A stretch of DNA of 64,000 bases from Thermoplasmata archaeon (GCA_021792255.1 JAJYUZ010000003.1:137405-201404), one strand, 5' to 3'; positions 18,229 through 61,167 are shown, numbered from the stretch's first letter. Translations and numbers: made by a program. The notes: a model not told the origin generated them from the letters alone.

Positions 18229-20606
18229 TTTTCATGATTGAAAACAGAGCTATTGAAAAGGAGATGAAAGACTCCTACCTGGATTACGCGATGAGCGTGA
18301 TTCTTGCCAGAGCGATACCCGATGTAAGGGACGGGCTAAAGCCCGTGCAAAGAAGAATTCTTTACTCGATGTACGAGATGGGGGTCACCTTTGACAAGCC
18401 TTACAGGAAGTCCGCAAGGATCGTTGGAGAGGTCATGGGTAAGTATCATCCTCACGGCGATTCGGCAATTTATTCTGCGCTGGCTAGAATGGCACAAGAT
18501 TTCTCTCTGCGTTACACGTTAGTAGAGGGTCAAGGCAACTGGGGCTCGCGCGACGGGGATCCACCGGCCGCCATGAGGTACACCGAAGCTAGATTGAGTA
18601 AGATATCAAACGAAATGCTAGCTGATATCGAGTACGAAACCGTAGATTTCTCTTTGACCTTCGACGGAACACTCAAGGAACCGTTATGCCTCCCCTCCAA
18701 GATCCCTAACATTCTGTTGAACGGAACCTCGGGAATTGCGGTCGGTATGGCGACAAACATGCCTCCTCACAATTTAGGGGAAATAGTAGATGGATTGATA
18801 CTGCTGATCAAAAACAAAGAGGCTGGGATCGAGGATCTCTTGAAGATAGTTAATGGCCCGGATTTTCCTACCGGAGGGATTATTCTAGGCAAGAAGGGAA
18901 TTATCGATGCATACAGCACCGGAAGGGGCAAGTTTGACCTAAGAGCCAAGGCAGAGATAGAAAAGAACGAGATAATTTTCTCCGAAGTTCCTTACGAGGT
19001 CAACAAGTCCGAACTGCTGAGCAAGATTGCCGAACTTTCGAAGAACGACGTGATCGATGGTATATCTAACATAAAAGATGAGAGCAACAAGGATGGAATC
19101 AGGATCGTAGTAAAAGTCAAGAATGACTTCAACCCAGAGATCACTTTGAATCAGATATATGAGCATACCCAGGCTCAGGTATCGTACGGAATCATCAACC
19201 TCGTTCTCGTGAACAACGTTCCCAGAACCATGGGACTCAAGGAAATGATGGTCGAGTATCTGAACCACAGGGAGCTGGTCGTAAGAAGGAGAACCGAATT
19301 CTTTCTAAAAAAGGCCAGAGAAAGAGAGCACATCCTGGAAGCTCTTCTCAAGGCTCTGAATGCAATCGATCTTACCATAAAGATTATCAGGTCATCCAAG
19401 GAAGTGAAGGACGCGAGAGAGGGGCTGAAGAAACAGTTCTCACTGGACGATCTACAAGCAAATGCTATCCTCGACACGAAATTGCAAAAGTTGACTGGAA
19501 TGGAGATTGCCGATCTCAAGAATGAGATGAAGGAGATTGAGGACAAAATAAAGCACTACATCGATCTCCTAAAGAATGAGGACAAAAGATGGGATCTGAT
19601 AATCGAAGAGTTGGAAGAAGTCAAAGAAAAATATGGGGACTCCAGAAAGACAGAAATCACTGAGTCTTACGTCGAAACTACAGAAGAGGAGCTTATTCCT
19701 CACGAAACTGATACCATCGTTCTTACCGAAGACAACAGGATAAGTCGTATTGAAGCAGATACCTTCTCCGCTCAGAAGAGGGGAGGCAAGGGTGTGTTCA
19801 CTGGCTCTTCCGAGAGTGAGATCAAACAACTGATAACTTGTGACTCCCACGACAGGGTATTCTTCTTCTCTGACAACGGTAAGGTGTTCCAAATGAAAGC
19901 TTACACCATTCCCAAAGGGGAGAGAAGATCAAGGGCGAAACTGATCTCCGCCGTTTTCGATAACATGAAGGGGAGAATTGTTTTCATAATGAGTGAGAAG
20001 GGGGGAGAAGGCAAGAAATATCTTCTCTTTGTGACCGAAAGAGGGAGGGTAAAGAAGACCGAGATTTCTCAGTTTATGAACATCAGGTCAAATGGCCTGA
20101 TCGCCCTGAAGCTTAGACCGGGAGATCTGCTGAAGGACGTGTTCGTCACCTCTGGCGATGAAAAAATCGCACTGCTCTCGACGGACGGAAGATTGGTCCT
20201 GGTCGAGGAGCGGGAATTCAGATCGATGGGCAGGGCAGCCTCTGGGGTCACTGGTATAAGATTCAAGGGAGAAAACAAGGTCGCAAGCGATGCAACAATA
20301 ACCACAGAAGACATGATCGTGATAGCCGAAAGAGGACTTGGAAAGAGAGTGAACGTAGGAGACTTTTCGATGAGACACCGCGGCGCTAAGGGAATGAGGG
20401 CTATCAAGATTACTGAAAGAACTGGAAGGCCAATTTATGTCTCATCCATTGAAGATACTGACGAGCTCTTGATCATTACCAGGAACGGAAAAACAATTCG
20501 CACGGCAGTGGCTTCTATTCCACAGAAGGGAAGGAACGCCCAGGGAGTCAAGCTTATAGGTCTGGATGAGGGAGATCTGGTGGCTTCTGTCACTCGGATC
20601 TCTTGA
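18225..20606 (+). CDS. gyrA: DNA gyrase subunit A
   Basis: 793 aa. [16 protein letters not shown], active-site context AMRYTEARL, and C-terminal beta-pinwheel repeats. GTGA overlap with gyrB; an alternative ATG lies at 18234. Confidence 0.95.
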
Positions 20607-40441: not shown

Positions 40442-41509
40442 CTATTTCTTGGCCGAACTGGCTCTTCCCTCTCTAAGTGCCTGTTTGCCTTTCCTTATGC
40501 TCTCTATGAATCTAGGCACTATTTCGTACGCATCGCCTATGAGGGCCACATCGGAGTACTTTACAATTGGAGCAGCCGCGTCCTTATTAATGGATATAAT
40601 GTATTCCGAAGATTTCATTCCTGCGATGTGTTGAATGGCTCCTGATACTCCGACAGCAATGTAGAGTTTTGGATGAACTGTTTTTCCGGTCTGCCCGACC
40701 TGCCTGTCCCTCGTGATCCATCCTGCGTCTACCGTTGGTCTAGAAGCCGCAACTATTCCGCCGAGTTCGTTCGCAAGATCTTCCAGAATCTTGAACCCCT
40801 CCTTCTTTCCCAGTCCCATTCCACCGCATACAACTACATCTGCGGTAGTTATGTCGACTTCCTCTCTTGTCACGATCTGGAGTAGCTTTGTGACTACGTC
40901 CTCTTCCTTGATGCTGTTCTCTACTCTCTCTATCTCTCCCTTTCGTCCTACTACCCTATCTACGGGCTTGAATATACCTGGTCTTGCACTTGCCATCTGC
41001 GGTCGATGCCTGCTGCACAGTATATTTGCAAGGATTGCTCCGCCGAAAGCGGGTCTCCTCGCTTCCAGCAGTTTCTTGGATGGATCTATATCTATTTCGG
41101 TACAGTCCGCTGTTATTCCTGTGTTGACTCTGACCGCAATTCTTGACGCCAGATCACGTCCGTTGTGGGTTGCACCAATGACGAAGTAGTTTGGCTTCTT
41201 TTCCACTATTAGTGAAGCTATCGCGTCGGCATATGGCCTCGTTCTGTAGTGTCGATAGACCTGATTCTTGACAAAAATAACCCTATCTACGCCATACTCT
41301 ATCGCCTCTTGAGCCATTCTTTCTCCGTTCTCATCTGCCAGGAGAATACCGACCAATTTTTCGTTGTATTTATCGGCCAGCTTTCTGCCTATACCGGCCA
41401 TCTCGAGTGAAATCCTGGACAGCTCTCCGTCGTTCTGTTCCAACCAGATCCAGAGGTCCTTGTATATCTCTACATTCGCTGGTGGGGTCGCGCATCTATT
41501 CTTTATCAT
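40442..41509 (-). CDS. etfA: electron transfer flavoprotein alpha subunit (EtfA/FixB)
   Basis: 355 aa with a C-terminal FAD-binding ETF-alpha pattern (PKLYIAVGVSGAIQHIAGM..INKD..API). Confidence 0.85.
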   Translation of the reverse strand: MIKNRCATPPANVEIYKDLWIWLEQNDGELSRISLEMAGIGRKLADKYNEKLVGILLADENGERMAQEAIEYGVDRVIFVKNQVYRHYRTRPYADAIASLIVEKKPNYFVIGATHNGRDLASRIAVRVNTGITADCTEIDIDPSKKLLEARRPAFGGAILANILCSRHRPQMASARPGIFKPVDRVVGRKGEIERVENSIKEEDVVTKLLQIVTREEVDITTADVVVCGGMGLGKKEGFKILEDLANELGGIVAASRPTVDAGWITRDRQVGQTGKTVHPKLYIAVGVSGAIQHIAGMKSSEYIISINKDAAAPIVKYSDVALIGDAYEIVPRFIESIRKGKQALREGRASSAKK

Positions 41510-42288
41510 TTCACTATCCCCCTCTCAATCAGGACTGAAACTATCTTGTCCAATTCTTCGATGCCTGGTTTCGACGGATTCTTCACAGGGTCAGGAACGG
41601 TCTTCATATCCTTGACGATCGTCGGTGAACCCTTCAGGCCTATGCAAGCTGGATCCAGCTGCAATTCCTTGTTTGTTACCAGCTTCACTCCCTTCTTGTA
41701 GGCCGCAATTTTTCTCTTGAGCGTTGGATTTCTGGGATCGTTGGCGTTGAGAGTTATTGTTATCACTGCTGGCTTCCCTATCTTTATAGTTTCCTCAGCT
41801 CCTTCGATGTCTCTGACCACTACGAAAAATCCGTTTTCGTACTCCACCTTGTGTACATAGGTGGCCTGTTCATAACCCATGAATTCTGCAATTCCTGGGC
41901 CAACGTGCCCCGTAGATGAGTCCGTGGTCTCCTCCCCGCAGAGTATCACGTCAAATCCCCCAAGGTAGTCCGCGACAGACGCAAGCGTGAAAGCGGTTGG
42001 CCACGTATCTGCACCGGCAAAAACTCTGTCTGTGACGAGTACTCCGTTGTCTGCCCCCATTCCCATCAACTGCAACAGAGCAGAATCTGCCATCGGTGGT
42101 CCCATCGTAATCACCGTAATCTCTCCTCCATACCTGTCTTTGAGCTGTACGGCCGCTTCAGTGGCATTGACGTCCGGGGGATTGACCACATTTCTAGCCA
42201 TGCTCCTGTTCAAGGTCTTCGTGACTGGATCTATACTTATGTCCTGACTATCAGGAACTTGTTTTATCATAACTGCAATCTTCAACAT
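41506..42288 (-). CDS. etfB: electron transfer flavoprotein beta subunit (EtfB/FixA)
   Basis: 260 aa. MKQVPD.. N-terminus and ILCGEETTDSSTGHVGP motif. 4-nt overlap with etfA. Confidence 0.85.
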   Translation of the reverse strand: MLKIAVMIKQVPDSQDISIDPVTKTLNRSMARNVVNPPDVNATEAAVQLKDRYGGEITVITMGPPMADSALLQLMGMGADNGVLVTDRVFAGADTWPTAFTLASVADYLGGFDVILCGEETTDSSTGHVGPGIAEFMGYEQATYVHKVEYENGFFVVVRDIEGAEETIKIGKPAVITITLNANDPRNPTLKRKIAAYKKGVKLVTNKELQLDPACIGLKGSPTIVKDMKTVPDPVKNPSKPGIEELDKIVSVLIERGIVK

Positions 42289-49022: not shown

Positions 49023-50366
49023 GTGTATAGAATCGGCATAGAAGAACACGATAGCACCTTCTATGCGATAGTTCTGACAAATAATGACAAAGTTCTATGG
49101 AAGGGAAAAAACAAAGATCTGACTGAACTTCTGAACCTTCTCGACGAAAGTGAAGCGCTGAAAGGGCATGATATCGAGTATGCAGCATTTTCAACCGATA
49201 TTGTAAACAGCATTTCTCCAGTTATGAAAAGAACTTCCCCCATTGTTCTGATAAAAGTGGGAGGATCCAAAGATAACTTTTCTTATGTGTCTACAGAGAG
49301 GAATTCTCGCCCCTTCAAGGGATTGGAAATTCATAATTACTTTATTAAGGGTGCAATGAAACCATATGGAGAAGAAGAATCGCCTTTAGATTCCAAGGAA
49401 ATCAAAAAAATAGCCAAAATACTCAACGAAGACAAAAGTGTTAAGGGAGTTGGGATCATAGGTCAATTCTCAAACTTTTTACCTCAGCATGAAGAAAAGA
49501 TCGCAAGAGAGCTGAATAAGACTATTGAGAGAAAGATTTCAATTTGTTTGTCCTCATTGGTGTCCCACAGGAGCCTGGTGTACAGGGAAAGACTCCTCGT
49601 TATGAACCTAATTTTGGCAATTTCAGCCAGTCAGCATCTGATATTCATAGCAGAAAAGTTGAAAGAGTACCTAGGGCGTTCAAGACTCTATTTCTTAGGT
49701 TCTGATGGTTCACTAGTGCCAAACGAGACGGCACTTAATTACCCAGTGCTGCTGAATGGGTCGTCATACGTGTCGAAAATTGTTGGGCTTGGTGCAACCA
49801 CTGATTTGAAAGACCTCAACTTGATTACCAAGCTCGGAAAGAAGATTGTCCTCATGTCGTCATTCGATGGCGAGCCAGTATTAAAGAGGAAGGAGGATAC
49901 CTTTAAGAAAGGAATCAACGTTTTTTCTTCTGGAGTCATGAGACCGCTGAGTGGCAGATCAGAAGAGATTGAGCTCGTAATAAGAAATCTTAAAAAGAAA
50001 GATGAAACAACTACCGTGATAGACAAGAGTATCTTTCAAGAGTACCCCAAGCTTAATACCTGCGGTGCCAGATTGCAAAAGGTAGACGGATACCTAGGGG
50101 CTATGGGAGCAGTCTCAGCACCAATAAGGTTGACAATGGATTTCCTAGGCTCTATCCAGTTCAGTGGGAGGAAAGAAATATTGGAATCCTTCAAGAACAT
50201 TGTCAGGGAAAAAATCATAGAGGTGGGAGCAAAAACTGAGTCGGTAAGAGTCGTTCAAGTGGAAGAGATCCCTCTAAGTTATTTACCATGGGATAGCCTA
50301 AGAATCAGGATTTCAGTTGAAGGAAGACCGGGAGGCAGCCCCACATCTGGAGGCAAGCGGAAGTGA
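49023..50366 (+). CDS. hydantoinase-A/oxoprolinase-like (ASKHA) paralogue with degenerate nucleotide-binding motifs
   Basis: 447 aa, GTG start. It can be aligned along its length with the 55409 product (for example ..VRVVQVEEIPLSYLPWDSLRIRISVEG vs ..IEVKEVEEVSMPYLPGNSVKISVKVVG). However, the phosphate-1 motif is RIGIEEHDSTFYA instead of RIGIDVGSTNTDG, and the FDVGGATTNVG equivalent is missing. Confidence 0.6.
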   Translation: MYRIGIEEHDSTFYAIVLTNNDKVLWKGKNKDLTELLNLLDESEALKGHDIEYAAFSTDIVNSISPVMKRTSPIVLIKVGGSKDNFSYVSTERNSRPFKGLEIHNYFIKGAMKPYGEEESPLDSKEIKKIAKILNEDKSVKGVGIIGQFSNFLPQHEEKIARELNKTIERKISICLSSLVSHRSLVYRERLLVMNLILAISASQHLIFIAEKLKEYLGRSRLYFLGSDGSLVPNETALNYPVLLNGSSYVSKIVGLGATTDLKDLNLITKLGKKIVLMSSFDGEPVLKRKEDTFKKGINVFSSGVMRPLSGRSEEIELVIRNLKKKDETTTVIDKSIFQEYPKLNTCGARLQKVDGYLGAMGAVSAPIRLTMDFLGSIQFSGRKEILESFKNIVREKIIEVGAKTESVRVVQVEEIPLSYLPWDSLRIRISVEGRPGGSPTSGGKRK

Positions 50367-50865
50367 GTTTGATTTGATTGAAAGGGGAGAGACTAAACAA
50401 GAAGAGCACCTGGACGAGATAGACATAGGCATAATTAATATCTTGCTGGAAGACGGAACCAAGAATTTGAGTCAAATTGCCTCTGTACTTAAAGTGGGAA
50501 TAGCCACCGTTCACAGAAGGCTAAGGAAACTTAGGGATGAGGGTGTTATTGAGGGTTATACCCTTCTAGTGAACCCGAAGAAGTTGGGTCTTAATGTGAT
50601 TGCAATTACTTCCCTGAAAGTCGTGTCAGGCAGAGAACAAGAGATTCTCAAAGAGGTCGAAAAGATTAGAGATGTAACTGAGATATACAAGATCTCCGGC
50701 CAATTCGAGATAATCTTGAAGATAAAGGCAGGAGATCTTGGGGAACTGAACAAGATTCTAGACAGGATCAAGATAGTAAACGGAATTCAAGAGATAAACA
50801 CGAGCGTGGTTCTTGAAGTCCTTCGGGATCAACCCATACACCCTATCGGTGGTGAGACCAAATGA
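50317..50865 (+). CDS. Lrp/AsnC family transcriptional regulator
   Basis: 182 aa from ATG 50317, which overlaps the upstream gene by 50 nt; an alternative TTG lies at 50374. HTH LSQIASVLKVGIATVHRRLRKL plus a RAM domain. Confidence 0.75.
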   Translation: MKEDREAAPHLEASGSEFDLIERGETKQEEHLDEIDIGIINILLEDGTKNLSQIASVLKVGIATVHRRLRKLRDEGVIEGYTLLVNPKKLGLNVIAITSLKVVSGREQEILKEVEKIRDVTEIYKISGQFEIILKIKAGDLGELNKILDRIKIVNGIQEINTSVVLEVLRDQPIHPIGGETK

Positions 50866-51896
50866 AGATAGGAAGGAGAGAGCTCGAATCCCTCTCTTGT
50901 GGCTCGGAGATAATTGGAGGGGGAGGAGGTGGGAATACCTTTCCTGTAAGATCTGTCCTGAATTACTATCTGAGGGAAAATCATCCTCCAGTAACCATCG
51001 GAATTGATGACATTTCAGATTCAGCATTGGTAATGGGCGTAGCCTATCTTGGCTCTACTATGGTGATTGAAGAGAGGCTTCCGCAGGGACGGAATCTTAT
51101 TTCTTCAATTAAGACTCTCGAGAATTTCATAGGAGAGAAAACATCGGCAATAATTCCAATAGAGGGGGCAGGCGTGAATGCTTTAATTCCTCTCTTGGCC
51201 TCAGTAAATTCAAAAACACCAGTGATAGATGCTGACGGCATGGGACGCGCATTCCCTGAACTTTCTATGACTACATTCTCCATAAATGGAATATCTGCTT
51301 CCCCTCTCACAATTTCAGACGATCGAGGGAATGTGGTGGTTGTAGAGGAGCTTGAAGAAAAGCTGACAGAAGAAATGGTCAGAGGGATTGCTCTTATATA
51401 TGGAGGTGGCGCATGGCTAACTGCCTTTCCCATGACCGGAGCGGAAGCAAGAAAGTTCAGCATAAAAGGGACTATTTCAAGGAACATTCGGATAGGAGAC
51501 GTACTCTTGGAAAACACATCACCAAAGGAGAAAATCAAGAAGTTAGAGAGAGAATTCAACGTGAGATTGGTTGGTGAGGGCTACGTAAAAGAGATCTTTA
51601 GATACAGGGAAGGAAAGTTCTCGAAGGGTGACCTGTTCATAAAATGTTATGATGACAGATTTCTAAAGGTATCTTTTCAGAACGAATACCTGATGATCAC
51701 TGAACAAGATGAAGTAATAGCCAGTGTTCCCACCATAATCACACTAATTGACGCATATACCCTCAGACCCATAAGGACTGACGAGGTTACAACGGAAGAC
51801 GAAGTATTAGCTATATGTATTCCAGAGCCTGATGAACTCAGAACCAATAAAGCTCTCAACAAGGTCGGGCCGAGAGTCTTTGGATACAAAATATGA
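50862..51896 (+). CDS. DUF917-like protein, paralogue a
   Basis: 344 aa. Motifs: IIGGGGGGNT, IEGAGVNALIPL, IDADGMGRAFPELSM, FQNEYL, VGPRVFGY. ATGA overlap with the Lrp gene. Confidence 0.6.
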   Translation: MKIGRRELESLSCGSEIIGGGGGGNTFPVRSVLNYYLRENHPPVTIGIDDISDSALVMGVAYLGSTMVIEERLPQGRNLISSIKTLENFIGEKTSAIIPIEGAGVNALIPLLASVNSKTPVIDADGMGRAFPELSMTTFSINGISASPLTISDDRGNVVVVEELEEKLTEEMVRGIALIYGGGAWLTAFPMTGAEARKFSIKGTISRNIRIGDVLLENTSPKEKIKKLEREFNVRLVGEGYVKEIFRYREGKFSKGDLFIKCYDDRFLKVSFQNEYLMITEQDEVIASVPTIITLIDAYTLRPIRTDEVTTEDEVLAICIPEPDELRTNKALNKVGPRVFGYKI

Positions 51897-52040: not shown

Positions 52041-52442
52041 TTAGTCCAGAAAGTATATCTTCTTTCTCGCCACGTCAACAATCATAAACACTGCCAACAG
52101 AGATATGACTGTCAGAAGTACCACCTGTATCGCTACTGTCGCCGCGTTATCTGCGAAGTACTTTCCGAACAACAACGACAACACCGCGGTGGTAACGGAA
52201 AACGTAAGCCAAGAATGCTGTGCTCCAATCTTGCCAAATTTTTCAGAGCCCTCAGGACCATGCTCTTTCACAGTAGTCACCCGTACTAGTCCAAATACTG
52301 CAGACAGAACATTGACCAGTGCAAGTATCTCGAGCTCTATAGACGTAGCCTTGTTTGATGCGGTCAGTACTGCCACCAAAGTCACGAGGGACAGCACTGC
52401 AAAGAGTGCCAGCGTTAAATTGACCGTCTTCTTTAGATCCAT
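52041..52442 (-). CDS. small 4-TM membrane protein downstream of the NCS1 permease
   Basis: 133 aa with four hydrophobic helices. It begins 2 nt after the permease stop. Confidence 0.5.
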   Translation of the reverse strand: MDLKKTVNLTLALFAVLSLVTLVAVLTASNKATSIELEILALVNVLSAVFGLVRVTTVKEHGPEGSEKFGKIGAQHSWLTFSVTTAVLSLLFGKYFADNAATVAIQVVLLTVISLLAVFMIVDVARKKIYFLD

Positions 52443-52444
52443 GA

Positions 52445-53887
52445 CTATTCCTTCCCTCCTGAGGACTTGGGAGATTCTCCTATTGCGGCCAACAGTTTCC
52501 TATGTTCATACTCACCAAACTCATATCTAATATTCAGCGCCTTGCATACGTAAGCGATGATTATGTAGGCAACTATCCCCACAACGAATGCATTAACGGC
52601 GGCAATACCGATGTGTAAAAATAGTCCAGTTGCAGCGCCTATCGCGAAACTTAATATGCCGTTTACGTTTATTTCAGGATACTTACCTTCCGTGGTAAAT
52701 TTGTACCGGTCTTCAAATCTCCGTATCCCCTTGACGTATCTGTGAACTATATAGAAATCAGCAATGACAACACCAGCAGCTGCTGGCAGCAAATCTCCAA
52801 GCACGGTTATAAAATTCTCAAACGGAGCTATGGATGCACCGGAAGTGTATCCTATCCATGCAGCTATCCCAACTCCTATGACGCCGTTTATGATTGCAGC
52901 AGTTCCACGTTTCATCTTCCAGAGATTTACGAGCGAAAGAGAGCCCGAATAGAGGTTAACTGCGTTTATGCATAGTTGCCCGAGAATTATGATCAGGAGT
53001 ACCGCTATCCCCATCCCAACGCTTAACATGGCTTCCGTAACGAGGTATGTACCAGTTACAAGAACAAGTGCCACGCCACCCAGTATGAGGAATGGATAGA
53101 TGGCAAACATGTGAGTAGTCCAAGAGACCCAAGCGATTGTGCCTGATTTCGAGAACCTCGCTAGGTCACCTGCAATGAGTGCACCCGCTATGTACAATCC
53201 GACAGCAGCTGTAATTCCCTCCGCCATTGAATAGGGATGGAGCGGTCGGAGAGTCAATAGATTACCGCCCCCATGCACCAGAGAGAGGGCGATAATAAAA
53301 CCTACGCCAATCAACCATATGTGCTGCGGAAGCGCTATGTAAGTGAGGAACGATAGTGCCCTGTAACCTATGTACGTTGCAAGAACCATCAGTGCACCCC
53401 CCCAGAGAGAATCAAAGACTATGTTGTGAAGCAGACCAGTTGCAAACATCTCAGACATGACTATTCCAAACAACCATGTTTCTACAGCGTACCATCCTAT
53501 GCCTGTCGTGACCATTATGAGCACGACTCCAAATATTCCAGCCGGTATTCTACCAAAAGAATATCTCCAGTTCAGATAGGTGGAGCCTCCACTCTTGGCA
53601 GACATGAAACCGGTTAAGGAGCCAATTATGGCTAGTATGGTGCTTGCTGCAAACACAGCTATTACTGCACCTACAAAAGTCAGACCGTATCCAAGCGCTC
53701 CTCCTCCCCACACGACAGCAATCGCTGCGAACGAAGCATTCATCACCATGAACAGGTTGAAAAATCCTCTTCTGGATTTCCTTGGAACTTCTTTAAGTGA
53801 GAAGTCGTCAACTATGTCTCCAAGCTTGTTTTTAGAAGGATTTTTTGACATCTGCCCGGTCGGAGCGTTCTCTCCAGCCATGGTCAA
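52445..53887 (-). CDS. NCS1 family permease (cytosine/hydantoin/allantoin-type)
   Basis: 480 aa with about 12 TM. N-terminal ..EVPRKSRRGFFNLFMVMNAS.. and ..SGGSTYLNWRYSFGRIPAG...GIGWYAVETW.. patterns are typical of CodB/NCS1. Confidence 0.75.
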   Translation of the reverse strand: MTMAGENAPTGQMSKNPSKNKLGDIVDDFSLKEVPRKSRRGFFNLFMVMNASFAAIAVVWGGGALGYGLTFVGAVIAVFAASTILAIIGSLTGFMSAKSGGSTYLNWRYSFGRIPAGIFGVVLIMVTTGIGWYAVETWLFGIVMSEMFATGLLHNIVFDSLWGGALMVLATYIGYRALSFLTYIALPQHIWLIGVGFIIALSLVHGGGNLLTLRPLHPYSMAEGITAAVGLYIAGALIAGDLARFSKSGTIAWVSWTTHMFAIYPFLILGGVALVLVTGTYLVTEAMLSVGMGIAVLLIIILGQLCINAVNLYSGSLSLVNLWKMKRGTAAIINGVIGVGIAAWIGYTSGASIAPFENFITVLGDLLPAAAGVVIADFYIVHRYVKGIRRFEDRYKFTTEGKYPEINVNGILSFAIGAATGLFLHIGIAAVNAFVVGIVAYIIIAYVCKALNIRYEFGEYEHRKLLAAIGESPKSSGGKE

Positions 53888-54216
53888 CCCTCCTTTTTAG
53901 TCGTTAGAAAAAGTACTTCAGTAGGGTAAAAACTCACTGCTAACATGTTACTTCACATTTGTACGCATTCAAAGTATTTAATTTTTTCACAATTCTCACT
54001 TTTTACAAAAAAAAATATCATAGGCATAGGACTTGTATCCTGATAGTTCATTATGAATTATTCAATTATCTTAAGGACTATATGGACTGAGTCTGATGTT
54101 TTCTCTTTTGTTTGTTATCAATCGAATTACTTTCGTAAAAAAAAAATTCTGAGAAATGGTGATAAAATGGAAAATAAGAATCTTTAATATGAGCAAGCTA
54201 ATGAGAGTTCGATAGA

Positions 54217-54339
54217 ATGAGTTATCGGTTGGCACTTGACGATAAGGATTTCTTGAGGAGATTTGTAAAATTTGCGGTGTCGTCTCATCATCTCGAGATT
54301 GATAGAAACACCCTTCCATTGGAGAGGGAATTGACGTGA
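54217..54339 (+). CDS. possible 40-codon upstream ORF coupled (GTGA) to the DUF917-like gene b
   Basis: ATG 54217 to TGA 54337-54339 encodes MSYRLALDDKDFLRRFVKFAVSSHHLEIDRNTLPLERELT. Its stop overlaps GTG start 54336. I see no recognisable family and only a weak Shine-Dalgarno sequence. Confidence 0.2.
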   Translation: MSYRLALDDKDFLRRFVKFAVSSHHLEIDRNTLPLERELT

Positions 54340-55412
54340 GAGATTTAAACGTCCAGGATTTGGAGAATCTCGAGGTGGGGGCTGGCATCCTTGGAACCGG
54401 TGGAGGTGGGGACCCCTATATAGGAAAACTCCTCGCAAGGGAACAACTCCTAAGGGGGAAGAAAATCACACTCGTAGATCCAAAGGAGGTAGATTCTGAG
54501 TCCGAAATACTCCCAGTAGCGATGATGGGAGCTCCCGTGATTATGATCGAGAAAGTTCCAGGAGGCAAGGAAGTTGTAAAATCTCTAGAGTATTTCGAAA
54601 AGAATCTCAAAGAGAGTATTGATTTCATCACTCCTATTGAGATTGGGGGAGTAAATTCAACTGTACCTTTGGCAGTGGCGGGCATGACGGGTAAACCCGT
54701 AGTTGATGGCGATGGTGAGGGAAGGGCCTTCCCGGAGCTCCAGATGGTCACTTTCCACTTAGGAGATATCCAGGCGTCTCCAGTCGCAATGTTTGATGAA
54801 CGCGGAAACAACAACATTGTAATGGCCACGGATAATGTCTGGGCGGAGCGCATAGCTAGATCTGTCACGGTCAGATTTGGTGGGAGCGCGTACGTCGCCC
54901 TCTATCACATGAAAGGGATAGACTACAAAAAGTGGGCAGTTCTGAATACCATTACAAAATGCATAGACATAGGCGATGCTATTATGGACGCTAAGAGATC
55001 TGGTAGAAATGTTTTTGACGCCCTCCTTGACGAGACAGGAGGGGTTATGATCTTTTCAGGAAAAATCATCGAAGTGAAAAGGGAAGTGGAGAGAGGATTT
55101 GCGAGGGGTTCCACTGTTATAGAAGGCTCTGGGGAATTCAGGAACAAACATATGAGGATAGACTTCCAGAACGAGAACCTTATGGCCAGTATAGATGGCG
55201 AAATCATCACCAGCGTGCCCGATCTCATAACCATCCTAGACAGCGAAACTTCAGTTGCAATAACCACAGAGCACCTAAAATATGGGTTTCGTGTAAACGT
55301 GATGGTAATGAAATGCGACGAGAGATGGAGAACAGCTAAGGGACTGGAGACAGTTGGCCCCAGATACTTTGGGTATGACATAGAATACAGACCGATGGAG
55401 GAATTAATTTGA
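54336..55412 (+). CDS. DUF917-like protein, paralogue b
   Basis: 358 aa, GTG start. Motifs: ILGTGGGGDPYIG, IEIGGVNSTVPL, VDGDGEGRAFPELQM, FQNENL, VGPRYFGY. Confidence 0.6.
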   Translation: MRDLNVQDLENLEVGAGILGTGGGGDPYIGKLLAREQLLRGKKITLVDPKEVDSESEILPVAMMGAPVIMIEKVPGGKEVVKSLEYFEKNLKESIDFITPIEIGGVNSTVPLAVAGMTGKPVVDGDGEGRAFPELQMVTFHLGDIQASPVAMFDERGNNNIVMATDNVWAERIARSVTVRFGGSAYVALYHMKGIDYKKWAVLNTITKCIDIGDAIMDAKRSGRNVFDALLDETGGVMIFSGKIIEVKREVERGFARGSTVIEGSGEFRNKHMRIDFQNENLMASIDGEIITSVPDLITILDSETSVAITTEHLKYGFRVNVMVMKCDERWRTAKGLETVGPRYFGYDIEYRPMEELI

Positions 55413-56959
55413 AGGTAAGAATTGGGATTGATGTCGGTAGCACAAACACGGATGGGGTGGCCCTTGATGAAAACAACAACGTGCTCACCAAAGAAAAGTT
55501 CCAGACTACGGAAGACATTTCCACAGGTCTTTTCAACACCCTTAGAAAGGTCATTCAGAATCTCGGCAATTCGAAAGGATATATTGGAAGTGTAATGATT
55601 GGAACCACTCATGGATTAAATGCCATTACATCTCGGGTAGGGCTTACAGAGGTTCTAGCGATCAGGATAGGTCTGCCTGCCGGAGAGGGGATTCCTCCCC
55701 TGTCAGATTGGCCAGAGGAACTGAAGGAGGCCATAGGAAACCATATCCTTATGGTAAGGGGAGGACACGAATATACTGGAGAAGAGATAGTTAAATTCGA
55801 CGAAAATGGTCTGAGAAATTACCTTGCAAATTATAGGGGAAAGATTAAGTCTGTTGCCATCACTTCGATCTTTTCGTTCGTAAACCCAGAACACGAACTC
55901 AAAGCAGAATCCATAGTGAAAGAAGTATTAGGGGAGGAAGTCTTAGTAACACTCTCCAACAAGATCAGCAGTCTCGGTCTACTTGAAAGGGAGAACTCTA
56001 CGATTCTCAACGCAAGCATAAGACCACTAATGATGAGAATTATTGTGTCAATAGAAGAGATACTCAAGAATCTTGAACTGGGAGATGTAAAACTGTATTT
56101 TGCACAGAATGATGGAACCGTCGCCTCAGAAGACTTTGTGCGGAAATTTCCGATTTTCACCGTAGCAGGACCAATATCAAACAGCATCAGGGGTGCATTT
56201 GTACTCACAGGAATCGAAAATGCCGTTGTCTTTGATGTAGGGGGTGCCACTACCAACGTGGGGGCACTGACAAACGGTTATCCGAGAGAGTCCAGCAATC
56301 CTGTCATAATAGGGGGTGTCAGGACGAATTTCAGGATGCCTGACATCTTATCCATACCGCTTGCGGGTGGGACTATAGTCAGGGATAAGATAGGACCTGA
56401 TACGCTCGGTTTCAGGTTGACAAAAGAGGCAATATCATTTGGAGGAGATGTATTGACGGCTACAGACATTGCGCTGAACGCGCTGAAGATTGATCTTCCT
56501 GGAGCCGAAAGGTCTAGGGTTTTGAAAAAGTTTGACAATGATTTCATAACAAGTAAATATGTGACGATGAGAAATATGTGGGAAAATTGCCTTGATAAGA
56601 TAAAGACAAAAGCCGGGGATGTCAGGCTTGTGACCGTGGGTGGTGGCGCCTTCATGATACACAGCAAGCTTCGAGGTTCGTCAGACGTGATAAGACCGGA
56701 AAGTGCACAGTATGCTAATGCAATTGGGGCAGCAACAGCCCTTATTGGTGCAAGGATTGACAGAGCATATTCTTACGAGGCTGTGAAGAGGGAAAAGGCC
56801 ATAGAGGAATCAATTGAGCAGGCAAAATCTATCTCTGTAGAGGCGGGGGCAGTACCGTCGACCATAGAAGTGAAGGAAGTGGAAGAGGTGTCTATGCCTT
56901 ACCTCCCGGGTAATTCTGTCAAGATATCAGTAAAGGTAGTGGGAAAAATGGCACAATGA
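55409..56959 (+). CDS. hydantoinase-A/oxoprolinase family protein (ASKHA fold, motifs intact)
   Basis: 516 aa, TTG start in a TTGA overlap. Motifs: RIGIDVGSTNTDGV, LLERENSTILNASIRPLM, VFDVGGATTNVG, TVGGGAF. Confidence 0.7.
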   Translation: MKVRIGIDVGSTNTDGVALDENNNVLTKEKFQTTEDISTGLFNTLRKVIQNLGNSKGYIGSVMIGTTHGLNAITSRVGLTEVLAIRIGLPAGEGIPPLSDWPEELKEAIGNHILMVRGGHEYTGEEIVKFDENGLRNYLANYRGKIKSVAITSIFSFVNPEHELKAESIVKEVLGEEVLVTLSNKISSLGLLERENSTILNASIRPLMMRIIVSIEEILKNLELGDVKLYFAQNDGTVASEDFVRKFPIFTVAGPISNSIRGAFVLTGIENAVVFDVGGATTNVGALTNGYPRESSNPVIIGGVRTNFRMPDILSIPLAGGTIVRDKIGPDTLGFRLTKEAISFGGDVLTATDIALNALKIDLPGAERSRVLKKFDNDFITSKYVTMRNMWENCLDKIKTKAGDVRLVTVGGGAFMIHSKLRGSSDVIRPESAQYANAIGAATALIGARIDRAYSYEAVKREKAIEESIEQAKSISVEAGAVPSTIEVKEVEEVSMPYLPGNSVKISVKVVGKMAQ

Positions 56960-58026
56960 CGTGGAGACTGAGGCACGAAGACATCGACATATTGACTCTT
57001 GGAAGTTCTCTCCTGGGTTCAGGCGGAGGAGGAAACCCATACATTGGAGGCCTCTTGCTAAAGAAGTCGATGGAGAAATTAGGCATAGATGGGATAGAAG
57101 TTATCGCCCCCGATAGTATTAATGACGATGCTACAATAATCGCTTCTGCAGGGATGGGCTCTCCGACAATTGGATCTGAAAAATTGCCGAATGGTGAAGA
57201 GTATGCCCGGTCGTTGTCGAGACTTGAGAAAGATATGGAAATTGAATTTGAATACGTGACGCCTTCGGAGATTGGAGGGGCCAACTCGGTCGTACCCTTC
57301 ATAGCTGCTCTGTTTAGGGGCCTTCCAGTGCTTGATGGCGATGGTGAGGGAAGGGCCTTCCCGGAGCTCCAGATGACGACCTTCAATCTGTACGGTATCT
57401 CTTCCACTCCAATGTGTCTTGCGGACGAGAGAGGAAACGAACTGATCATCAACTCGGTTGATAATCTCTGGGCAGAAAGCATTGCAAGGTCTGTGACCGC
57501 ACGTTTTGGGGGAAGGGGATACGTGGCCAATTACCCAATGAGTGGAAAGGACTACAAGAAGTCGGCAGTAAAGAATTCAGTGAGTAGAGCAAGAGATCTC
57601 GGAGAGCTCCTCTCCAGGGGGATGAGGAACAATTCGGTTGAAGATGTGCTGACAAAAGAAGCAGGCGCCAGCGAGCTTTTCGATGGCAAATTGACAGATC
57701 TTGTAAGAGAAAACAATGGTGGTTTTTCCATAGGCTATGCGATTTTCCGGTCGACAGAAGGAGAGAAGACCTCAAGAATTAGATTTCAGAACGAGTATCT
57801 GTTCTTTGATGAGAAAATCGAAGGAGATATGATAGAGATTGTTACTACTCCCGAGATTATCTGCATACTCGATAGGGAAACATACATGCCAATAACAACG
57901 GATAGGCTACGATACGGCCAGAGGTGCAAGGTATTTAGTCTTCCAGTTGGCGAAAAGTGGAACCATCCACTTGCGGATGATCTGGTAGGTAGAAGAGTAT
58001 TTTCGGTTTTGAAACACTTTCAGTAG
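56956..58026 (+). CDS. DUF917-like protein, paralogue c
   Basis: 356 aa, ATGA overlap. Motifs: LLGSGGGGNPYIG, SEIGGANSVVPF, LDGDGEGRAFPELQM, FQNEYL. The C-terminal VGRRVFSV is diverged. Confidence 0.6.
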   Translation: MTWRLRHEDIDILTLGSSLLGSGGGGNPYIGGLLLKKSMEKLGIDGIEVIAPDSINDDATIIASAGMGSPTIGSEKLPNGEEYARSLSRLEKDMEIEFEYVTPSEIGGANSVVPFIAALFRGLPVLDGDGEGRAFPELQMTTFNLYGISSTPMCLADERGNELIINSVDNLWAESIARSVTARFGGRGYVANYPMSGKDYKKSAVKNSVSRARDLGELLSRGMRNNSVEDVLTKEAGASELFDGKLTDLVRENNGGFSIGYAIFRSTEGEKTSRIRFQNEYLFFDEKIEGDMIEIVTTPEIICILDRETYMPITTDRLRYGQRCKVFSLPVGEKWNHPLADDLVGRRVFSVLKHFQ

Positions 58027-58429: not shown

Positions 58430-58880
58430 ATGAAATTTAAAACAGACGATCGAGGACTAGATTTTGGGGTCTGACTGACAGTGGAGAGAGAATTACACTG
58501 AGTGAAAAATTGAAAGAAGGACCAGTCCTCTTGTACTTCTATCCGGAGGATGAAACTCCTGGATGTACTACAGAGACGTGCTCATTCAGAGACAACTGGG
58601 ATGAGATAAAGAAGGTGAGAGCGACTGTGCTGGGAGTGAGCTTTGACTCAGTTGATTCCCATAAGAATTTTAAATCGAACCGGCCCCTACAGTTCATCCT
58701 CGTTTCTGATGAGAGTAAGGCGATCAGAGAAGCATATGGAGCTACTGGTCTACTGATACCCCACGTATAGCTTTTGTGATAGACAAAGGCGGAACGATAA
58801 AGGAAGTCTATAGTTCTCAGCTCAATGCGACCAACCACGCTGATGTAGCACTGAAAACATTGAAATCTGTTAGGCAGTAA
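58430..58880 (+). pseudogene. bcp: Bcp-type peroxiredoxin gene interrupted by two 1-nt frameshifts (or by sequencing errors)
   Basis: Three frames join into a full-length Bcp of about 150 aa: MKFKTDDRGLDF / LTDSGERITLSEKLKEGPVLLYFYPEDETPGCTTETCSFRD...LLIP / RIAFVIDKGGTIKEVY...KSVRQ*. The shifts fall in the T4G4 run (58462-58469) and the C4 run (58759-58762). Confidence 0.7.
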
Positions 58881-59976: not shown

Positions 59977-61167
59977 TCAAAGCTTGCTCTTTACAAAATC
60001 TATGAAGACCTCTGCATCTCCGAAAACATTGGACAGTTTGGCATACTCATTGGGCATGTGTTCAGTTTCATCAAGAGTGCCCCATACTATTGTGTCTAGC
60101 CCTTTGTTCCTAAAGAATGCTCCGCAGGTCCCTCCACCTATTCCAACTCTGTTGACTTCAATCCCCCTGATCTTCTTGATACTGTTTATGAATTTCTGAA
60201 CAAATTCCTTTCCTTCTGGAGTATTGGAAGATGGGTTTGCCCTGTTGATAAATTCAAGCTGAACTTCCACTCCAAATTCCTCCTTAAATTCGTTAGTCAC
60301 TTTCTCCACTTCTTTGAAAACTTCATCAATTGAGTATCTCGGAAGAATCCTCATATCGAAATAGAAGCTCTCTTTACCGGGGATGATGTTTATCGATGTC
60401 GTCCCGGGTTCCACTTTTGTAGGTTCAAACGTGCTCATAGGAACAGTGAATTCTGAATCGGTCGCGTTGAATTTTGAATGGAGATCTTTGTCCAACCTCA
60501 ACTCCAGCTCCCTTGCTAATCTATGGGCGTTCTTTCCAGCATCCGGGGTCGATGCGTGACATTGCTGCCCCACGACGCTTATCTTGAGCCATATCAATCC
60601 CTTTTCCGCTATCTCCACCGAGTCCCCTTCCGGAGTGCCAAAATCAGGAACTACGAATTTGTCGTTTTTACTGAATTTCTTGTTACGAAGAACGTAGTCT
60701 ATACCGAAGGTGCTTCCAGCCTCCTCGTCTGAAACAAATATTACGCCTATGTTGTTCTGCAATTCCTCTGGACACTCCAAGAAGTACTTTAGTGCGATCA
60801 GGGAAGAAATTCCTCCTTGTCCGTTATCGCACGTCCCTCTTCCATAAATTTTATCTCCATCGATTGTGGCCTGGAAAGGGGGATATTTCCATAGACTTAG
60901 GTCGCCCTCACTTACTGTGTCCATGTGCGCGACAAACCAAACAGTCTTCTCCTTTCCCTTGTCCAGTAGAAACAGGAGGTTCGGTCTCTTGATTCCATCG
61001 GATACCGCTACATACTCTTCGAATTTCAAGCCCTTGTTCCAGCTCAGTATCTCCCTCTTAAGGAATTCGGCTCTCTTTTCTTCCCCTCTTCCTCCACCGG
61101 CAGGGTTAACTGCATTTATTTCAATCATCTTTGAGTACAAGTCTAAGAAGTAGTCCCTATCACTCAT
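59977..61167 (-). CDS. M20 family metallohydrolase (ArgE/DapE/LysK-like deacylase)
   Basis: 396 aa. Motifs: AHMDTV, GRGTCDNGQG, SDEEAGS, plus a C-terminal HMPNEY. Confidence 0.8.
   Translation of the reverse strand: MSDRDYFLDLYSKMIEINAVNPAGGGRGEEKRAEFLKREILSWNKGLKFEEYVAVSDGIKRPNLLFLLDKGKEKTVWFVAHMDTVSEGDLSLWKYPPFQATIDGDKIYGRGTCDNGQGGISSLIALKYFLECPEELQNNIGVIFVSDEEAGSTFGIDYVLRNKKFSKNDKFVVPDFGTPEGDSVEIAEKGLIWLKISVVGQQCHASTPDAGKNAHRLARELELRLDKDLHSKFNATDSEFTVPMSTFEPTKVEPGTTSINIIPGKESFYFDMRILPRYSIDEVFKEVEKVTNEFKEEFGVEVQLEFINRANPSSNTPEGKEFVQKFINSIKKIRGIEVNRVGIGGGTCGAFFRNKGLDTIVWGTLDETEHMPNEYAKLSNVFGDAEVFIDFVKSKL

What the first reader, a model, noticed from the sequence alone, without database searches (positions are those of the whole stretch)
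54336..58026. DUF917-like / HyuA-like / DUF917-like triad with 4-nt start-stop overlaps suggests a heteromeric enzyme
Seen: the three genes are chained by overlapping stop/start tetranucleotides, TTGA at 55409-55412 and ATGA at 56956-59. The first gene starts at a GTG that overlaps the stop of a possible 40-codon uORF (GTGA, 54336-39). Two different DUF917-like paralogues sandwich the one HyuA-like protein that retains intact ASKHA phosphate-binding motifs (DVGSTNTD, DVGGATTN). Inference: tight translational coupling of this kind often accompanies stoichiometric complexes. A b:HyuA:c assembly would be a new subunit composition for the hydantoinase/oxoprolinase superfamily.
Basis: partly seen in the sequence, partly recalled or inferred. 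Interest (0 to 1): 0.65.

Follow-up and report, generated by a model that had tools for sequence, protein, structure and literature searches.

The report
DUF917–short hydantoinase–DUF917 operon
Three tightly packed archaeal genes encode a short ATP-binding hydantoinase-type protein flanked by two DUF917 hydrolase-like proteins; the ATPase–DUF917 partnership is real, very widespread, fused into one protein in eukaryotes and still biochemically uncharacterised, but the "two different DUF917 around one ATPase" layout is a lineage-specific extra rather than the rule.

Summary
There are three ORFs at 54336-55412, 55409-56959 and 56956-58026. Both 4-nt stop/start overlaps are present, and the ASKHA motifs are intact in the middle protein. 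The flanking proteins are DUF917 (now Pfam S-Me-THD_N/C) paralogues, 44% identical.

- **The ATPase (H) plus DUF917 (D) partnership is strongly supported.** 75 of the 80 best genome loci have a D gene in the same-strand run directly beside H. Natural H-D fusion proteins exist in both orders. An AlphaFold2 model of one fusion has pTM 0.87. D is not a HyuB homologue, so this composition differs from HyuA/HyuB.
- **The specific b:H:c trimer is not general.** 59 of 80 loci have exactly one D. Multi-D loci vary from two to five D. Exact D-H-D was seen only in Thermoplasmatota relatives and one Conexivisphaerales MAG. dufC-like genes also occur away from H.
- **The 40-codon uORF is not conserved.**
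- **4-nt overlaps are common in this window** (8 of 39 same-strand neighbour pairs).

Best reading: an NCS1-permease-linked operon for an ATP-dependent hydrolase of a cyclic amide or ureide. dufA is the canonical partner of H and dufC is an additional intact paralogue. Interest is moderate.

The parts
54336..55412 (+). dufA: DUF917 / S-Me-THD-like protein (358 aa), the canonical partner of the ATPase
   Evidence: Pfam S-Me-THD_N and S-Me-THD_C at E 3e-54 and 6.5e-71. It groups with the D gene found directly upstream of H in Acidiplasma, Acidianus, Caldivirga, Thermococcus and Archaeoglobus. It is closer than dufC to the D domain of the fusion protein P0123, 35% against 29%. It keeps all 25 invariant family columns. 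AF2 gives pLDDT 92 and pTM 0.90, and the only PDB fold neighbour is 2o3i.
55409..56959 (+). H: short HyuA-type ASKHA ATPase (516 aa, TTG start) with no Hydant_A_C domain detected
   Evidence: Hydant_A_N at E 4.8e-37. Hydantoinase_A is matched only over profile positions 1-170 of 291. Sequence matches to N-methylhydantoinase 7hk5 and to 6yra chain A (named 5-oxoprolinase; the caprolactamase entry) cover residues 4-325 only. The phosphate-1, phosphate-2 and GGG motifs lie in invariant columns. An SD-like GGAGGA sits 7-12 nt before the TTG.
56956..58026 (+). dufC: second DUF917 paralogue (356 aa), lineage-restricted clade
   Evidence: Pfam E 5.5e-52 and 3.6e-44. It is 44% identical to dufA. It forms its own clade with the downstream D of L081 and L084 and the minus-strand D of Acidianus L083. 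About 33 database clusters share at least 46% identity with it. It keeps all invariant family columns.
52445..53887 (-). NCS1-family permease (cytosine/hydantoin/allantoin type), divergently transcribed
   Evidence: Pfam Transp_cyt_pur. The best NCBIfam match is cytosine permease, below its cut-off. A homologue is present in 43 of about 87 D-H loci and in every close archaeal relative examined.
52041..52442 (-). 133-aa hydrophobic protein encoded next to the permease
   Evidence: No Pfam or NCBIfam match. The sequence looks hydrophobic and helical. A gene of 126-135 aa occupies the same position beside the permease in L081, L083, L084, L090 and L091.
53888..54335 (.). Divergent intergenic region, including the unsupported 40-codon ORF at 54217-54339
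   Evidence: No Rfam match. It is not alignable with the Acidiplasma upstream region. The uORF peptide has no homologue. The equivalent spacer in L091 is only 110 nt.
50862..51896 (+). D3: third DUF917 paralogue (344 aa), coupled by an ATGA overlap to the regulator gene
   Evidence: Pfam E 7.7e-47 and 7.8e-40. The overlap is read. It groups with the extra D of Archaeoglobus L014, which also follows an AsnC gene.
50317..50865 (+). AsnC/Lrp-family transcriptional regulator
   Evidence: Pfam AsnC_trans_reg and HTH_24. An AsnC-type regulator lies next to the D-H cluster in L083, L084, L085 and L014.
49023..50366 (+). H': degenerate HyuA-like protein (447 aa) with the phosphate-binding motifs lost
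   Evidence: Weak Hydant_A_N match. It is 25-30% identical to H in the middle and C-terminal parts. The N-terminus reads IGIEEHDSTFY where H has IGIDVGSTNTD. It is a rare family, with only 4 representatives at E<=1e-30 among 1.84 billion.

Best explanation
The three genes form one operon for a non-canonical two-component enzyme of the hydantoinase/oxoprolinase kind.

The middle protein (H) is a shortened HyuA-type ASKHA ATPase. Its partner is not HyuB but a DUF917 / S-Me-THD-like hydrolase (D), an unrelated fold.

Proposed mechanism, which is inferred and not shown:
1. A cyclic amide or ureide (hydantoin-, dihydropyrimidine- or diketopiperazine-like) is taken up by the divergently encoded NCS1 permease.
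2. H uses ATP to phosphorylate a ring carbonyl oxygen, as HyuA-type subunits are thought to do.
3. D, bound to H, adds water to the activated carbon. This is the same kind of carbon that stand-alone DUF917 enzymes attack in thio- or S-methyl-activated hydantoins.

dufA is the ancestral, canonical partner of H. dufC is an extra paralogue that looks catalytically intact. It was gained in a few thermoacidophilic archaeal lineages and is co-translated with H. It may join the same assembly, for example as a mixed D oligomer, or it may give the ATPase a second specificity.

What is shown: co-location, fusion, intact motifs, and the distinct fold of D. What is inferred: physical contact in the unfused proteins, ATP-dependent ring opening, and substrate class. 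What remains unproven: that dufA, H and dufC sit in a single complex.
For: **Gene linkage.** H homologues were found in at least 593 species genomes. In the best 80 loci, 75 have D in the same-strand run directly beside H, with a median apparent gap of 29 nt (D then H) or 21 nt (H then D).

**Fusions.** P0123-P0128 carry all four Pfam domains in one chain of 950-1052 aa, and they include a sea-cucumber protein. At least 22 of the top 150 hits in an unrelated search are 835-1057 aa long. Seven of seven tested are H-D fusions, six in the order H then D and one D then H.

**Structure prediction.** AF2 on fusion P0123 gives pLDDT 87 and pTM 0.87 with the linker 550-576 disordered. I read that value as too high for two freely hinged modules of roughly 530 and 370 residues.

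**H is ATPase-competent by motif**. Structurally it resembles the nucleotide-binding subunits of acetone carboxylase, N-methylhydantoinase, acetophenone carboxylase and caprolactamase.

**D is not HyuB.** Its only PDB neighbour is 2o3i.

**All three window D proteins keep the family-invariant residues**: GxGGGG, ExxGxN, DGDGxGRAFPE, QNE.

**Context.** An NCS1 permease is present in 43 of about 87 loci and a hydantoin-racemase-like gene in 11.

**Triad conservation.** The D-H-D triad is conserved in L091 (78% identity, both 4-nt overlaps), Acidiplasma, a Thermoplasmatota MAG and a Conexivisphaerales MAG.
Against: - No biochemical data were found for any D-H pair. The held literature calls DUF917 uncharacterised.
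- The NCBIfam equivalogs thiohydantoin desulfurase and S-methyl thiohydantoin desulfurase are missed by a wide margin, at 74-85 bits against cut-offs of 440-450. The chemistry of D here is therefore unknown.
- To my knowledge, which was not checked here, those characterised DUF917 enzymes need no ATPase.
- A simple water-for-phosphate exchange at the activated carbon would be a futile cycle, so ring opening has to be assumed.
- Only pTM and pLDDT could be read from the fusion model. There were no coordinates or PAE, and some D rows in its alignment had stray N-terminal residues.
- Against a fixed three-subunit complex: one D per H is the norm, D copy number per H ranges from 1 to 5, and dufC-like genes occur unlinked to H.
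Confidence: 0.55

Rival explanations
1. Obligate three-subunit enzyme. dufA, H and dufC assemble stoichiometrically into one complex, for example a dufA/dufC heterodimer flanked by H, and both D subunits are needed for activity.
For: Both junctions overlap by 4 nt, and both overlaps are kept in the 78% relative L091. D-H-D order is kept in four independent archaeal lineages. dufC orthologues form a clade of their own and keep all invariant residues, so they are under selection. The only solved family member, 2o3i, has two chains in the entry, which would fit D dimers.
Against: 59 of 80 loci have a single D. Fusion proteins are 1:1 H:D. In Acidianus the dufC orthologue is convergent on the other strand. 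dufC-like genes at 50% identity stand alone. Multi-D loci have two to five D, with no fixed number. 4-nt overlaps are frequent in this genome.
Confidence: 0.2
2. One shared ATPase with alternative catalytic partners. dufA:H and dufC:H are separate isoenzymes with different substrate or enantiomer specificity. Extra D genes, including D3, widen the substrate range.
For: D copy number per H varies from 1 to 5, and the extra copies belong to old, divergent clades rather than recent duplicates. All D keep the catalytic-looking invariant residues. dufC-like D occur in other contexts, beside peptide ABC transporter, nitroreductase and deacetylase genes. Archaeoglobus pairs a D3-type copy with its own AsnC regulator.
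Against: No specificity-determining residues could be defined without an active-site structure with ligand. No direct evidence shows that dufC contacts H.
Confidence: 0.3
3. H is not a substrate kinase but an ATP-dependent activase or maintenance factor for D. It would be comparable to the GlmL/MutL accessory proteins or the BcrAD/HgdC-type activators, and would service one or several D enzymes.
For: H gives weak matches to MutL/GlmL (PF13941), BcrAD_BadFG and the GlmL NCBIfam models. Structural neighbours beyond the hydantoinases include dehydratase activators and reactivases. A variable D:H ratio fits a servicing role. The window also keeps a motif-dead H' next to another D.
Against: The best matches by far are the hydantoinase/oxoprolinase nucleotide-binding subunits. 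Stable 1:1 fusions are more typical of catalytic partners than of transient activators. Nothing here points to a radical or metal cofactor in D that would need reactivation.
Confidence: 0.12
4. The three proteins act in one pathway without physical association. They would catalyse consecutive steps, for example ring opening followed by removal of a carbamoyl group by a second D. The overlaps would simply reflect compact operon structure.
For: 4-nt overlaps are common here. No carbamoylase gene is conserved in the cluster: the M20 hydrolase at 59977-61167 has no homologue in the related loci, which leaves room for a D to do that step.
Against: Recurrent fusions in both orders and a confident fusion model argue for contact between H and at least one D.
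Confidence: 0.1

Closest known systems
HyuA/HyuB-type ATP-dependent amidohydrolases: N-methylhydantoinase (PDB 7hk5/9h03), 5-oxoprolinase, caprolactamase (PDB 6yra)
   Same: H shares the Hydant_A_N and Hydantoinase_A domains, the ASKHA nucleotide-binding motifs and the overall fold of the alpha (HyuA) part. Gene context (NCS1 permease, hydantoin racemase in some loci) points to cyclic amide or ureide substrates.
   Different: H is about 170 residues shorter. The Pfam scan returned no Hydant_A_C match, and H aligns to HyuA only over residues 4-325. No HyuB gene adjoins it. Its constant neighbour and fusion partner is DUF917, whose fold is unrelated to HyuB by Foldseek.
Acetone carboxylase and acetophenone carboxylase (PDB 5svc/5m45, 5l9w)
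   Same: Their nucleotide-binding subunits are the best structural matches of the H module, at Foldseek E 4.5e-28 to 1.7e-21. They are multi-subunit enzymes built around a HyuA-like ATPase.
   Different: Those enzymes use HyuB-like and small gamma subunits and carboxylate ketones. No such subunits and no carboxylase context were seen in the genes examined around this operon.
Thiohydantoin desulfurase and S-methyl thiohydantoin desulfurase (NCBIfam NF058529, NF058532; the name-giving members of Pfam S-Me-THD)
   Same: Same two-domain family as dufA, dufC and D3.
   Different: The window proteins score 62-85 bits against equivalog cut-offs of 440-450, so they are not those enzymes. To my knowledge (not verified here) those enzymes act alone on sulfur-activated hydantoins without an ATPase.
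CV_3147 of Chromobacterium violaceum (PDB 2o3i), a structural-genomics DUF917 protein
   Same: It is the only solved structure with the D fold (TM 0.81, E 1e-22). It shares the GxGGGG, DxDGxGRAxP and QNE motifs.
   Different: It is about 22% identical, has no assigned function, and is not solved with any partner.
Eukaryotic and bacterial single-chain H-D fusion proteins (e.g. P0123, P0124 of Apostichopus japonicus, P0254, P0292)
   Same: They have the same two modules as H plus dufA, 34-36% identical over 98-99% of a concatenated H+dufA query.
   Different: They are one polypeptide, 1:1, with a 50-90 residue linker and no second D module in the chain. The window has split genes and an additional D.

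Membership tests
Hydantoinase/oxoprolinase family, HyuA (alpha) subunit | Hydant_A_N (PF05378) and Hydantoinase_A (PF01968) domains above Pfam gathering scores | tested here: met
   127.8 bits against 25.2 and 67.3 bits against 22.9. Hydantoinase_A is matched only over profile positions 1-170 of 291.
Hydantoinase/oxoprolinase family, HyuA (alpha) subunit | Intact ASKHA phosphate-1, phosphate-2 and adenosine motifs | tested here: met
   D8-G10-T12-T14-D15, D276-G278-G279-T281 and G411-G413 are invariant columns in 13 homologues including the window protein.
Hydantoinase/oxoprolinase family, HyuA (alpha) subunit | C-terminal Hydant_A_C domain (PF19278) as in the ~690-aa HyuA proteins | tested here: not met
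   No PF19278 match at E<=0.01. PDB homologues align only to residues 4-325. The canonical 683-aa HyuA next door in Acidianus does carry it.
Hydantoinase/oxoprolinase family, HyuA (alpha) subunit | Partnered with a HyuB (PF02538) subunit, adjacent or fused | tested here: not met
   The genes flanking H are DUF917 on both sides. Neighbours within about 10 kb carry no Hydantoinase_B match. In the 80 related loci the adjacent partner is DUF917.
Hydantoinase/oxoprolinase family, HyuA (alpha) subunit | ATP-dependent hydrolysis or carboxylation of a carbonyl substrate | not testable with these tools
   Needs an enzyme assay.
DUF917 / S-Me-THD-like family (PF06032 + PF20906) | Both Pfam domains above gathering score | tested here: met
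   dufA 183.8 and 238 bits, dufC 176.4 and 150.8 bits, D3 159.7 and 136.7 bits, against a cut-off of 27.
DUF917 / S-Me-THD-like family (PF06032 + PF20906) | Family-invariant residues (GxGGGG, ExxGxN, DGDGxGRAFPE, QNE) and the 2o3i fold | tested here: met
   25 invariant columns across 118 sequences that include all three window paralogues. The motifs are shared with 2o3i. The AF2 model of dufA matches 2o3i at TM 0.81.
Thiohydantoin desulfurase / S-methyl thiohydantoin desulfurase (NCBIfam equivalogs) | Score above the curated equivalog cut-off (440 / 450 bits) | tested here: not met
   dufA 84.7 and 83 bits, dufC 80.5 and 74.1 bits, D3 65.4 and 62.3 bits.
Conserved DUF917 + short-HyuA gene pair (uncharacterised module) | D gene directly adjacent to H on the same strand | tested here: met
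   Window: 4-nt overlaps on both sides of H. 75 of 80 related loci have D in the same-strand run beside H.
Conserved DUF917 + short-HyuA gene pair (uncharacterised module) | Association with an NCS1-family permease | tested here: met
   Window permease at 52445-53887. A homologue is present in 43 of about 87 loci.
   Kept in L091, L081, L084 and L090. Absent in Thermococcus, Caldivirga and most of the 80 loci. The dufC orthologue is on the other strand in Acidianus and unlinked in L088/L089.
Only the natural single-chain H-D fusion could be modelled.

The most novel reading that the evidence does not exclude
The short HyuA-type ATPase plus DUF917 is a distinct, very widespread class of ATP-dependent ring-opening hydrolase in which DUF917 replaces HyuB as the hydrolytic subunit. 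In this archaeal lineage the enzyme has become a hetero-oligomer with two different catalytic DUF917 subunits on one ATPase. That would be a subunit composition not described for the hydantoinase/oxoprolinase superfamily, and it would give a function to the eukaryotic H-DUF917 fusion proteins.
Probability: 0.25. Interest if true: 0.7.

Novelty: new variant of a known kind. Interest (0 to 1): 0.45.

Why it matters
DUF917 and the roughly 515-residue hydantoinase-like proteins are annotated in many genomes of Bacteria and Archaea. This study found at least 593 species genomes with the ATPase, and fused forms occur in eukaryotes. No paper in the searched library assigns the pair a function.

If the pair is an ATP-driven hydrolase that uses a partner unrelated to HyuB, three things follow. 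It would add a second architectural solution to the hydantoinase/oxoprolinase superfamily. It would explain a common permease-linked catabolic operon. It could also supply new biocatalysts for opening stable cyclic amides, hydantoins or diketopiperazines.

The triad in this window offers a compact, thermostable system in which one ATPase can be tested against two or three natural partners. The present evidence is comparative only. The window itself is one ordinary instance of the module with a lineage-specific extra copy, so the value lies in the family rather than in this locus.

Tried and rejected
- **Two-chain prediction.** I tried to pass H and dufA as two chains joined by a colon to the structure tool.
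- **uORF.** I checked the peptide by tblastn against all loci, aligned the upstream DNA with Acidiplasma, and inspected L091. It is not conserved, so I rejected it as a feature.
- **Leader region.** There is no Rfam match in the 450-nt leader. The sigma-70 and terminator scans gave nothing above the shuffle expectation and do not apply to archaea anyway.
- **Literature.** Searches for DUF917, PF06032, COG3535, 2O3I, thiohydantoin desulfurase, and ergothioneine or thiourocanate catabolism found no characterisation of the D-H pair. They found one statement that DUF917 is uncharacterised and enriched in cyclodipeptide-oxidase clusters, and one C. difficile transcriptome table listing a permease-DUF917-hydantoinase operon.
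- **M20 hydrolase as pathway carbamoylase.** I considered the M20 hydrolase at 59977-61167. It is a generic ArgE/DapE-type M20 and has no homologue in the related loci, so I rejected it as part of the system.
- **Racemase hypothesis.** I considered whether a second D substitutes for a hydantoin racemase. Racemase-like genes occur in 11 loci, including some multi-D loci, so there is no clean pattern and I did not pursue it.
- **Suspect fusions.** Fusions P0121 and P0122 look like frameshift artefacts at the junction, because the conserved C-terminal motif is replaced by Arg/Gly-rich sequence. I did not use them as evidence.
- **H' in Archaeoglobus.** I tested whether H' has a counterpart upstream of AsnC-D3 in Archaeoglobus. 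The gene there is an MR/MLE enolase-superfamily protein, not H'.

Full report
**1. The observation**

The + strand carries three ORFs: 54336-55412 (358 aa, GTG start), 55409-56959 (516 aa, TTG start) and 56956-58026 (356 aa, ATG start). The stop/start tetranucleotides TTGA at 55409-55412 and ATGA at 56956-56959 can be read directly.

The two outer proteins match Pfam S-Me-THD_N plus S-Me-THD_C, the current names for DUF917, with E-values from 1e-44 to 1e-71. The middle protein matches Hydant_A_N and the first 170 of 291 positions of Hydantoinase_A. The outer proteins are 44% identical to each other. They fall in columns that are invariant in an alignment of 13 homologues, as does a GGG adenosine-type motif.

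Two qualifications apply.
- The 40-codon ORF 54217-54339 exists. It has no counterpart upstream of the orthologous gene in Acidiplasma and no homologue in any related locus. It cannot exist in the 78%-identical relative L091, where the spacer is only 110 nt. I treat it as a chance ORF.
- 4-nt overlaps are ordinary in this genome. Eight of 39 same-strand neighbouring ORF pairs in the window have one.

**2. Surroundings**

The window comes from a Candidatus Thermoplasmatota MAG (record DAHWPY010000016.1). It is chromosomal, with gyrase, thermosome and eIF2-gamma genes.

Divergently transcribed from the triad are an NCS1-family permease (52445-53887) and a 133-aa hydrophobic protein (52041-52442).

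Further upstream lies a second, partly degenerate set:
- a 447-aa HyuA-like protein whose phosphate-binding motifs are lost (49023-50366; the N-terminus reads IGIEEHDSTFY);
- an AsnC/Lrp regulator (50317-50865);
- a third DUF917 gene (50862-51896) joined to the regulator by an ATGA overlap.

**3. Is the ATPase–DUF917 link real?**

An alignment-based scan of one genome per species found at least 593 loci encoding a relative of the 516-aa protein (H). They span Bacteria and Archaea.

In the best 80 loci the layouts around H were as follows.

| Layout | Loci |
|---|---|
| D-H | 49 |
| H-D | 10 |
| H-D-D | 7 |
| D-H-D-D | 4 |
| H-D-H-D | 2 |
| D-H-D-H | 1 |
| H-D-D-D | 1 |
| D-H-D-D-D-D | 1 |
| No D within 300 nt | 5 |

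So 75 of 80 loci have a DUF917 gene (D) in the same-strand run next to H, with median apparent gaps of 21-29 nt.

Natural fusion proteins carry all four Pfam domains in one chain. P0123-P0128 are 950-1052 aa, and one is from the sea cucumber Apostichopus japonicus. In an unrelated search at least 22 of the top 150 representatives were 835-1057 aa long. All seven that I scanned were H-D fusions, six in the order H then D and one D then H.

An AF2 model of fusion P0123 has mean pLDDT 87 and pTM 0.87, although the linker 550-576 is disordered. I read such a value as difficult to reach unless the two modules are placed confidently against each other. This is an inference, because neither coordinates nor PAE were available.

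Together these results make a physical and functional H:D partnership likely.

**4. Is this a different composition from HyuA/HyuB?**

Yes, as far as could be tested.
- H aligns to N-methylhydantoinase and to 6yra chain A (named 5-oxoprolinase in the sequence table; the caprolactamase entry) only over residues 4-325, and the Pfam scan returned no Hydant_A_C match.
- The H module of the fusion model resembles the nucleotide-binding subunits of acetone carboxylase, N-methylhydantoinase, acetophenone carboxylase and caprolactamase.
- The D model (pLDDT 92, pTM 0.90) matches only PDB 2o3i, a structural-genomics protein of unknown function. It matches nothing HyuB-like, and no PDB entry spans both modules.
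- The D proteins score far below the NCBIfam equivalog cut-offs for thiohydantoin desulfurase and S-methyl thiohydantoin desulfurase, so they are relatives and not members of those enzyme groups.

**5. Is the two-DUF917 sandwich general?**

No. One D per H is the rule (59 of 80 loci), and fusions are 1:1.

Exact D-H-D was seen in four relatives:
- L091 (78% identity, both 4-nt overlaps kept);
- Acidiplasma L081 (4-nt and 1-nt overlaps);
- a Thermoplasmatota MAG, L084;
- a Conexivisphaerales MAG, L090.

A neighbour-joining tree of 128 D sequences is crude and has no support values. It places dufA with the D found upstream of H in Acidiplasma, Acidianus, Caldivirga, Thermococcus and Archaeoglobus. 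It places dufC in a clade of its own with the downstream D of L081 and L084 and with a D of Acidianus that lies on the opposite strand. dufA is also closer than dufC to the D module of the fusion (35% against 29%).

dufC-like proteins at 50% identity are encoded alone, next to peptide ABC transporter, nitroreductase or deacetylase genes, with a D-H pair elsewhere.

All three D paralogues of the window keep the 25 columns that are invariant in 118 family members (GxGGGG, ExxGxN, DGDGxGRAFPE, QNE). The same motifs are seen in 2o3i. None of the three looks like a dead scaffold.

**6. Most likely mechanism**

I propose an operon for an ATP-dependent hydrolase of a cyclic amide or ureide. The substrate enters through the NCS1 permease, a homologue of which is found in 43 of about 87 loci. 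Some loci add a hydantoin racemase. H activates a ring carbonyl with ATP in the way proposed for HyuA-type subunits (established knowledge of the family, not tested here). D, docked on H, performs the hydrolytic step in place of HyuB.

The named members of the D family hydrolyse a sulfur-activated ring carbon of thiohydantoins (family names; details from my own knowledge). A phosphorylated carbonyl would be the oxygen analogue of that substrate.

dufA is the canonical partner. dufC either joins the same assembly or provides a second specificity.

My confidence is as follows.

| Claim | Confidence |
|---|---|
| H and a D form a complex | about 0.8 |
| The chemistry is ATP-dependent ring opening | about 0.5 |
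| All three proteins form one obligate complex | about 0.2 |

Rival readings are given in the report sections: shared ATPase with alternative partners, H as an activase, and a pathway without contact.

**7. Comparison with what is known, and novelty**

The literature search found no characterisation of a D-H pair.
- A 2023 preprint states that DUF917 proteins are uncharacterised and enriched in cyclodipeptide-oxidase clusters (10.1101/2023.09.25.559410).
- A C. difficile study lists a permease-DUF917-hydantoinase operon only as differentially expressed genes (PMC12915319).

The library lacks most subscription papers, so an existing characterisation cannot be excluded.

Relative to HyuA/HyuB enzymes this is a new variant of a known kind. 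Relative to the many genomes that carry the pair, the window is one ordinary instance with a lineage-specific extra D.

**8. Verdict**

The heteromeric-enzyme idea is supported for H plus DUF917 and unproven for the three-subunit form. The uORF is rejected. Interest is moderate (0.45). The family-level question is genuine and directly testable, but the feature that attracted attention, two D genes around H with overlaps, is neither general nor by itself evidence of a trimeric complex.

Noticed in passing
window 49023-51896: A second, partly degenerate set lies upstream of the triad. It comprises a 447-aa HyuA-like protein with lost phosphate-binding motifs, an AsnC/Lrp regulator, and a third DUF917 gene joined by an ATGA overlap. 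The degenerate protein belongs to a very small family, with 4 representatives at E<=1e-30 among 1.84 billion proteins. An AsnC-DUF917 pair of the same D clade also occurs in Archaeoglobus (L014 11236-12834).
   Followed up: partly
window 52041-52442 (-): A 133-aa hydrophobic protein with no family match is encoded next to the NCS1 permease. A gene of 126-135 aa holds the same position in L081, L083, L084, L090 and L091. It may be an accessory membrane subunit of the permease.
   Followed up: partly
P0123-P0128, P0254, P0259, P0292, P0305, P0343, P0371, P0376: Single-chain fusions of the short hydantoinase-like ATPase with DUF917 are numerous. They occur in both domain orders and include an echinoderm protein (Apostichopus japonicus). 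Their function appears to be unknown.
   Followed up: partly
P0121 and P0122 (metagenome proteins): These two apparent fusions lose the conserved C-terminal motif of the first module just before the junction, where an Arg/Gly-rich stretch replaces it. They look like frameshift or gene-calling artefacts in high-GC contigs.
   Followed up: no
window 58510-58770 (+): An 86-aa ORF matches only positions 26-101 of the 124-position AhpC/TSA profile. It is probably a truncated peroxiredoxin remnant or a mis-started gene.
   Followed up: no
L088 and L089 (loci of dufC-like proteins P0153, P0145); L014 9140-11105: Stand-alone dufC-like genes sit beside peptide ABC transporter (SBP_bac_5/Opp), nitroreductase, DUF6092 and polysaccharide-deacetylase genes. 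The Archaeoglobus locus adds a nitroreductase and an MR/MLE-type enzyme. Together with the reported enrichment of DUF917 in cyclodipeptide-oxidase clusters, this hints at diketopiperazine or peptide-derived substrates.
   Followed up: no
L083 271-2322 and upstream (Acidianus manzaensis): A canonical HyuA (683 aa, with Hydant_A_C) and a HyuB gene lie immediately next to the AsnC-permease-D-H cluster. Both architectures therefore coexist in one genome neighbourhood.
   Followed up: no
window 785-3592, 9092-11781, 13725-15071: There are two class-III aminotransferase plus aldehyde dehydrogenase gene pairs, one of them with a 4-nt overlap, and a second NCS1 permease. This gene set is reminiscent of omega-amino acid (beta-alanine/GABA-type) catabolism. 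A link to the D-H operon was not tested.
   Followed up: no
window 16231-20606 and 40442-42288: gyrB/gyrA and the two ETF subunit genes also overlap by 4 nt. This shows that such overlaps are the usual operon packing in this genome, including for known heteromers.
   Followed up: yes
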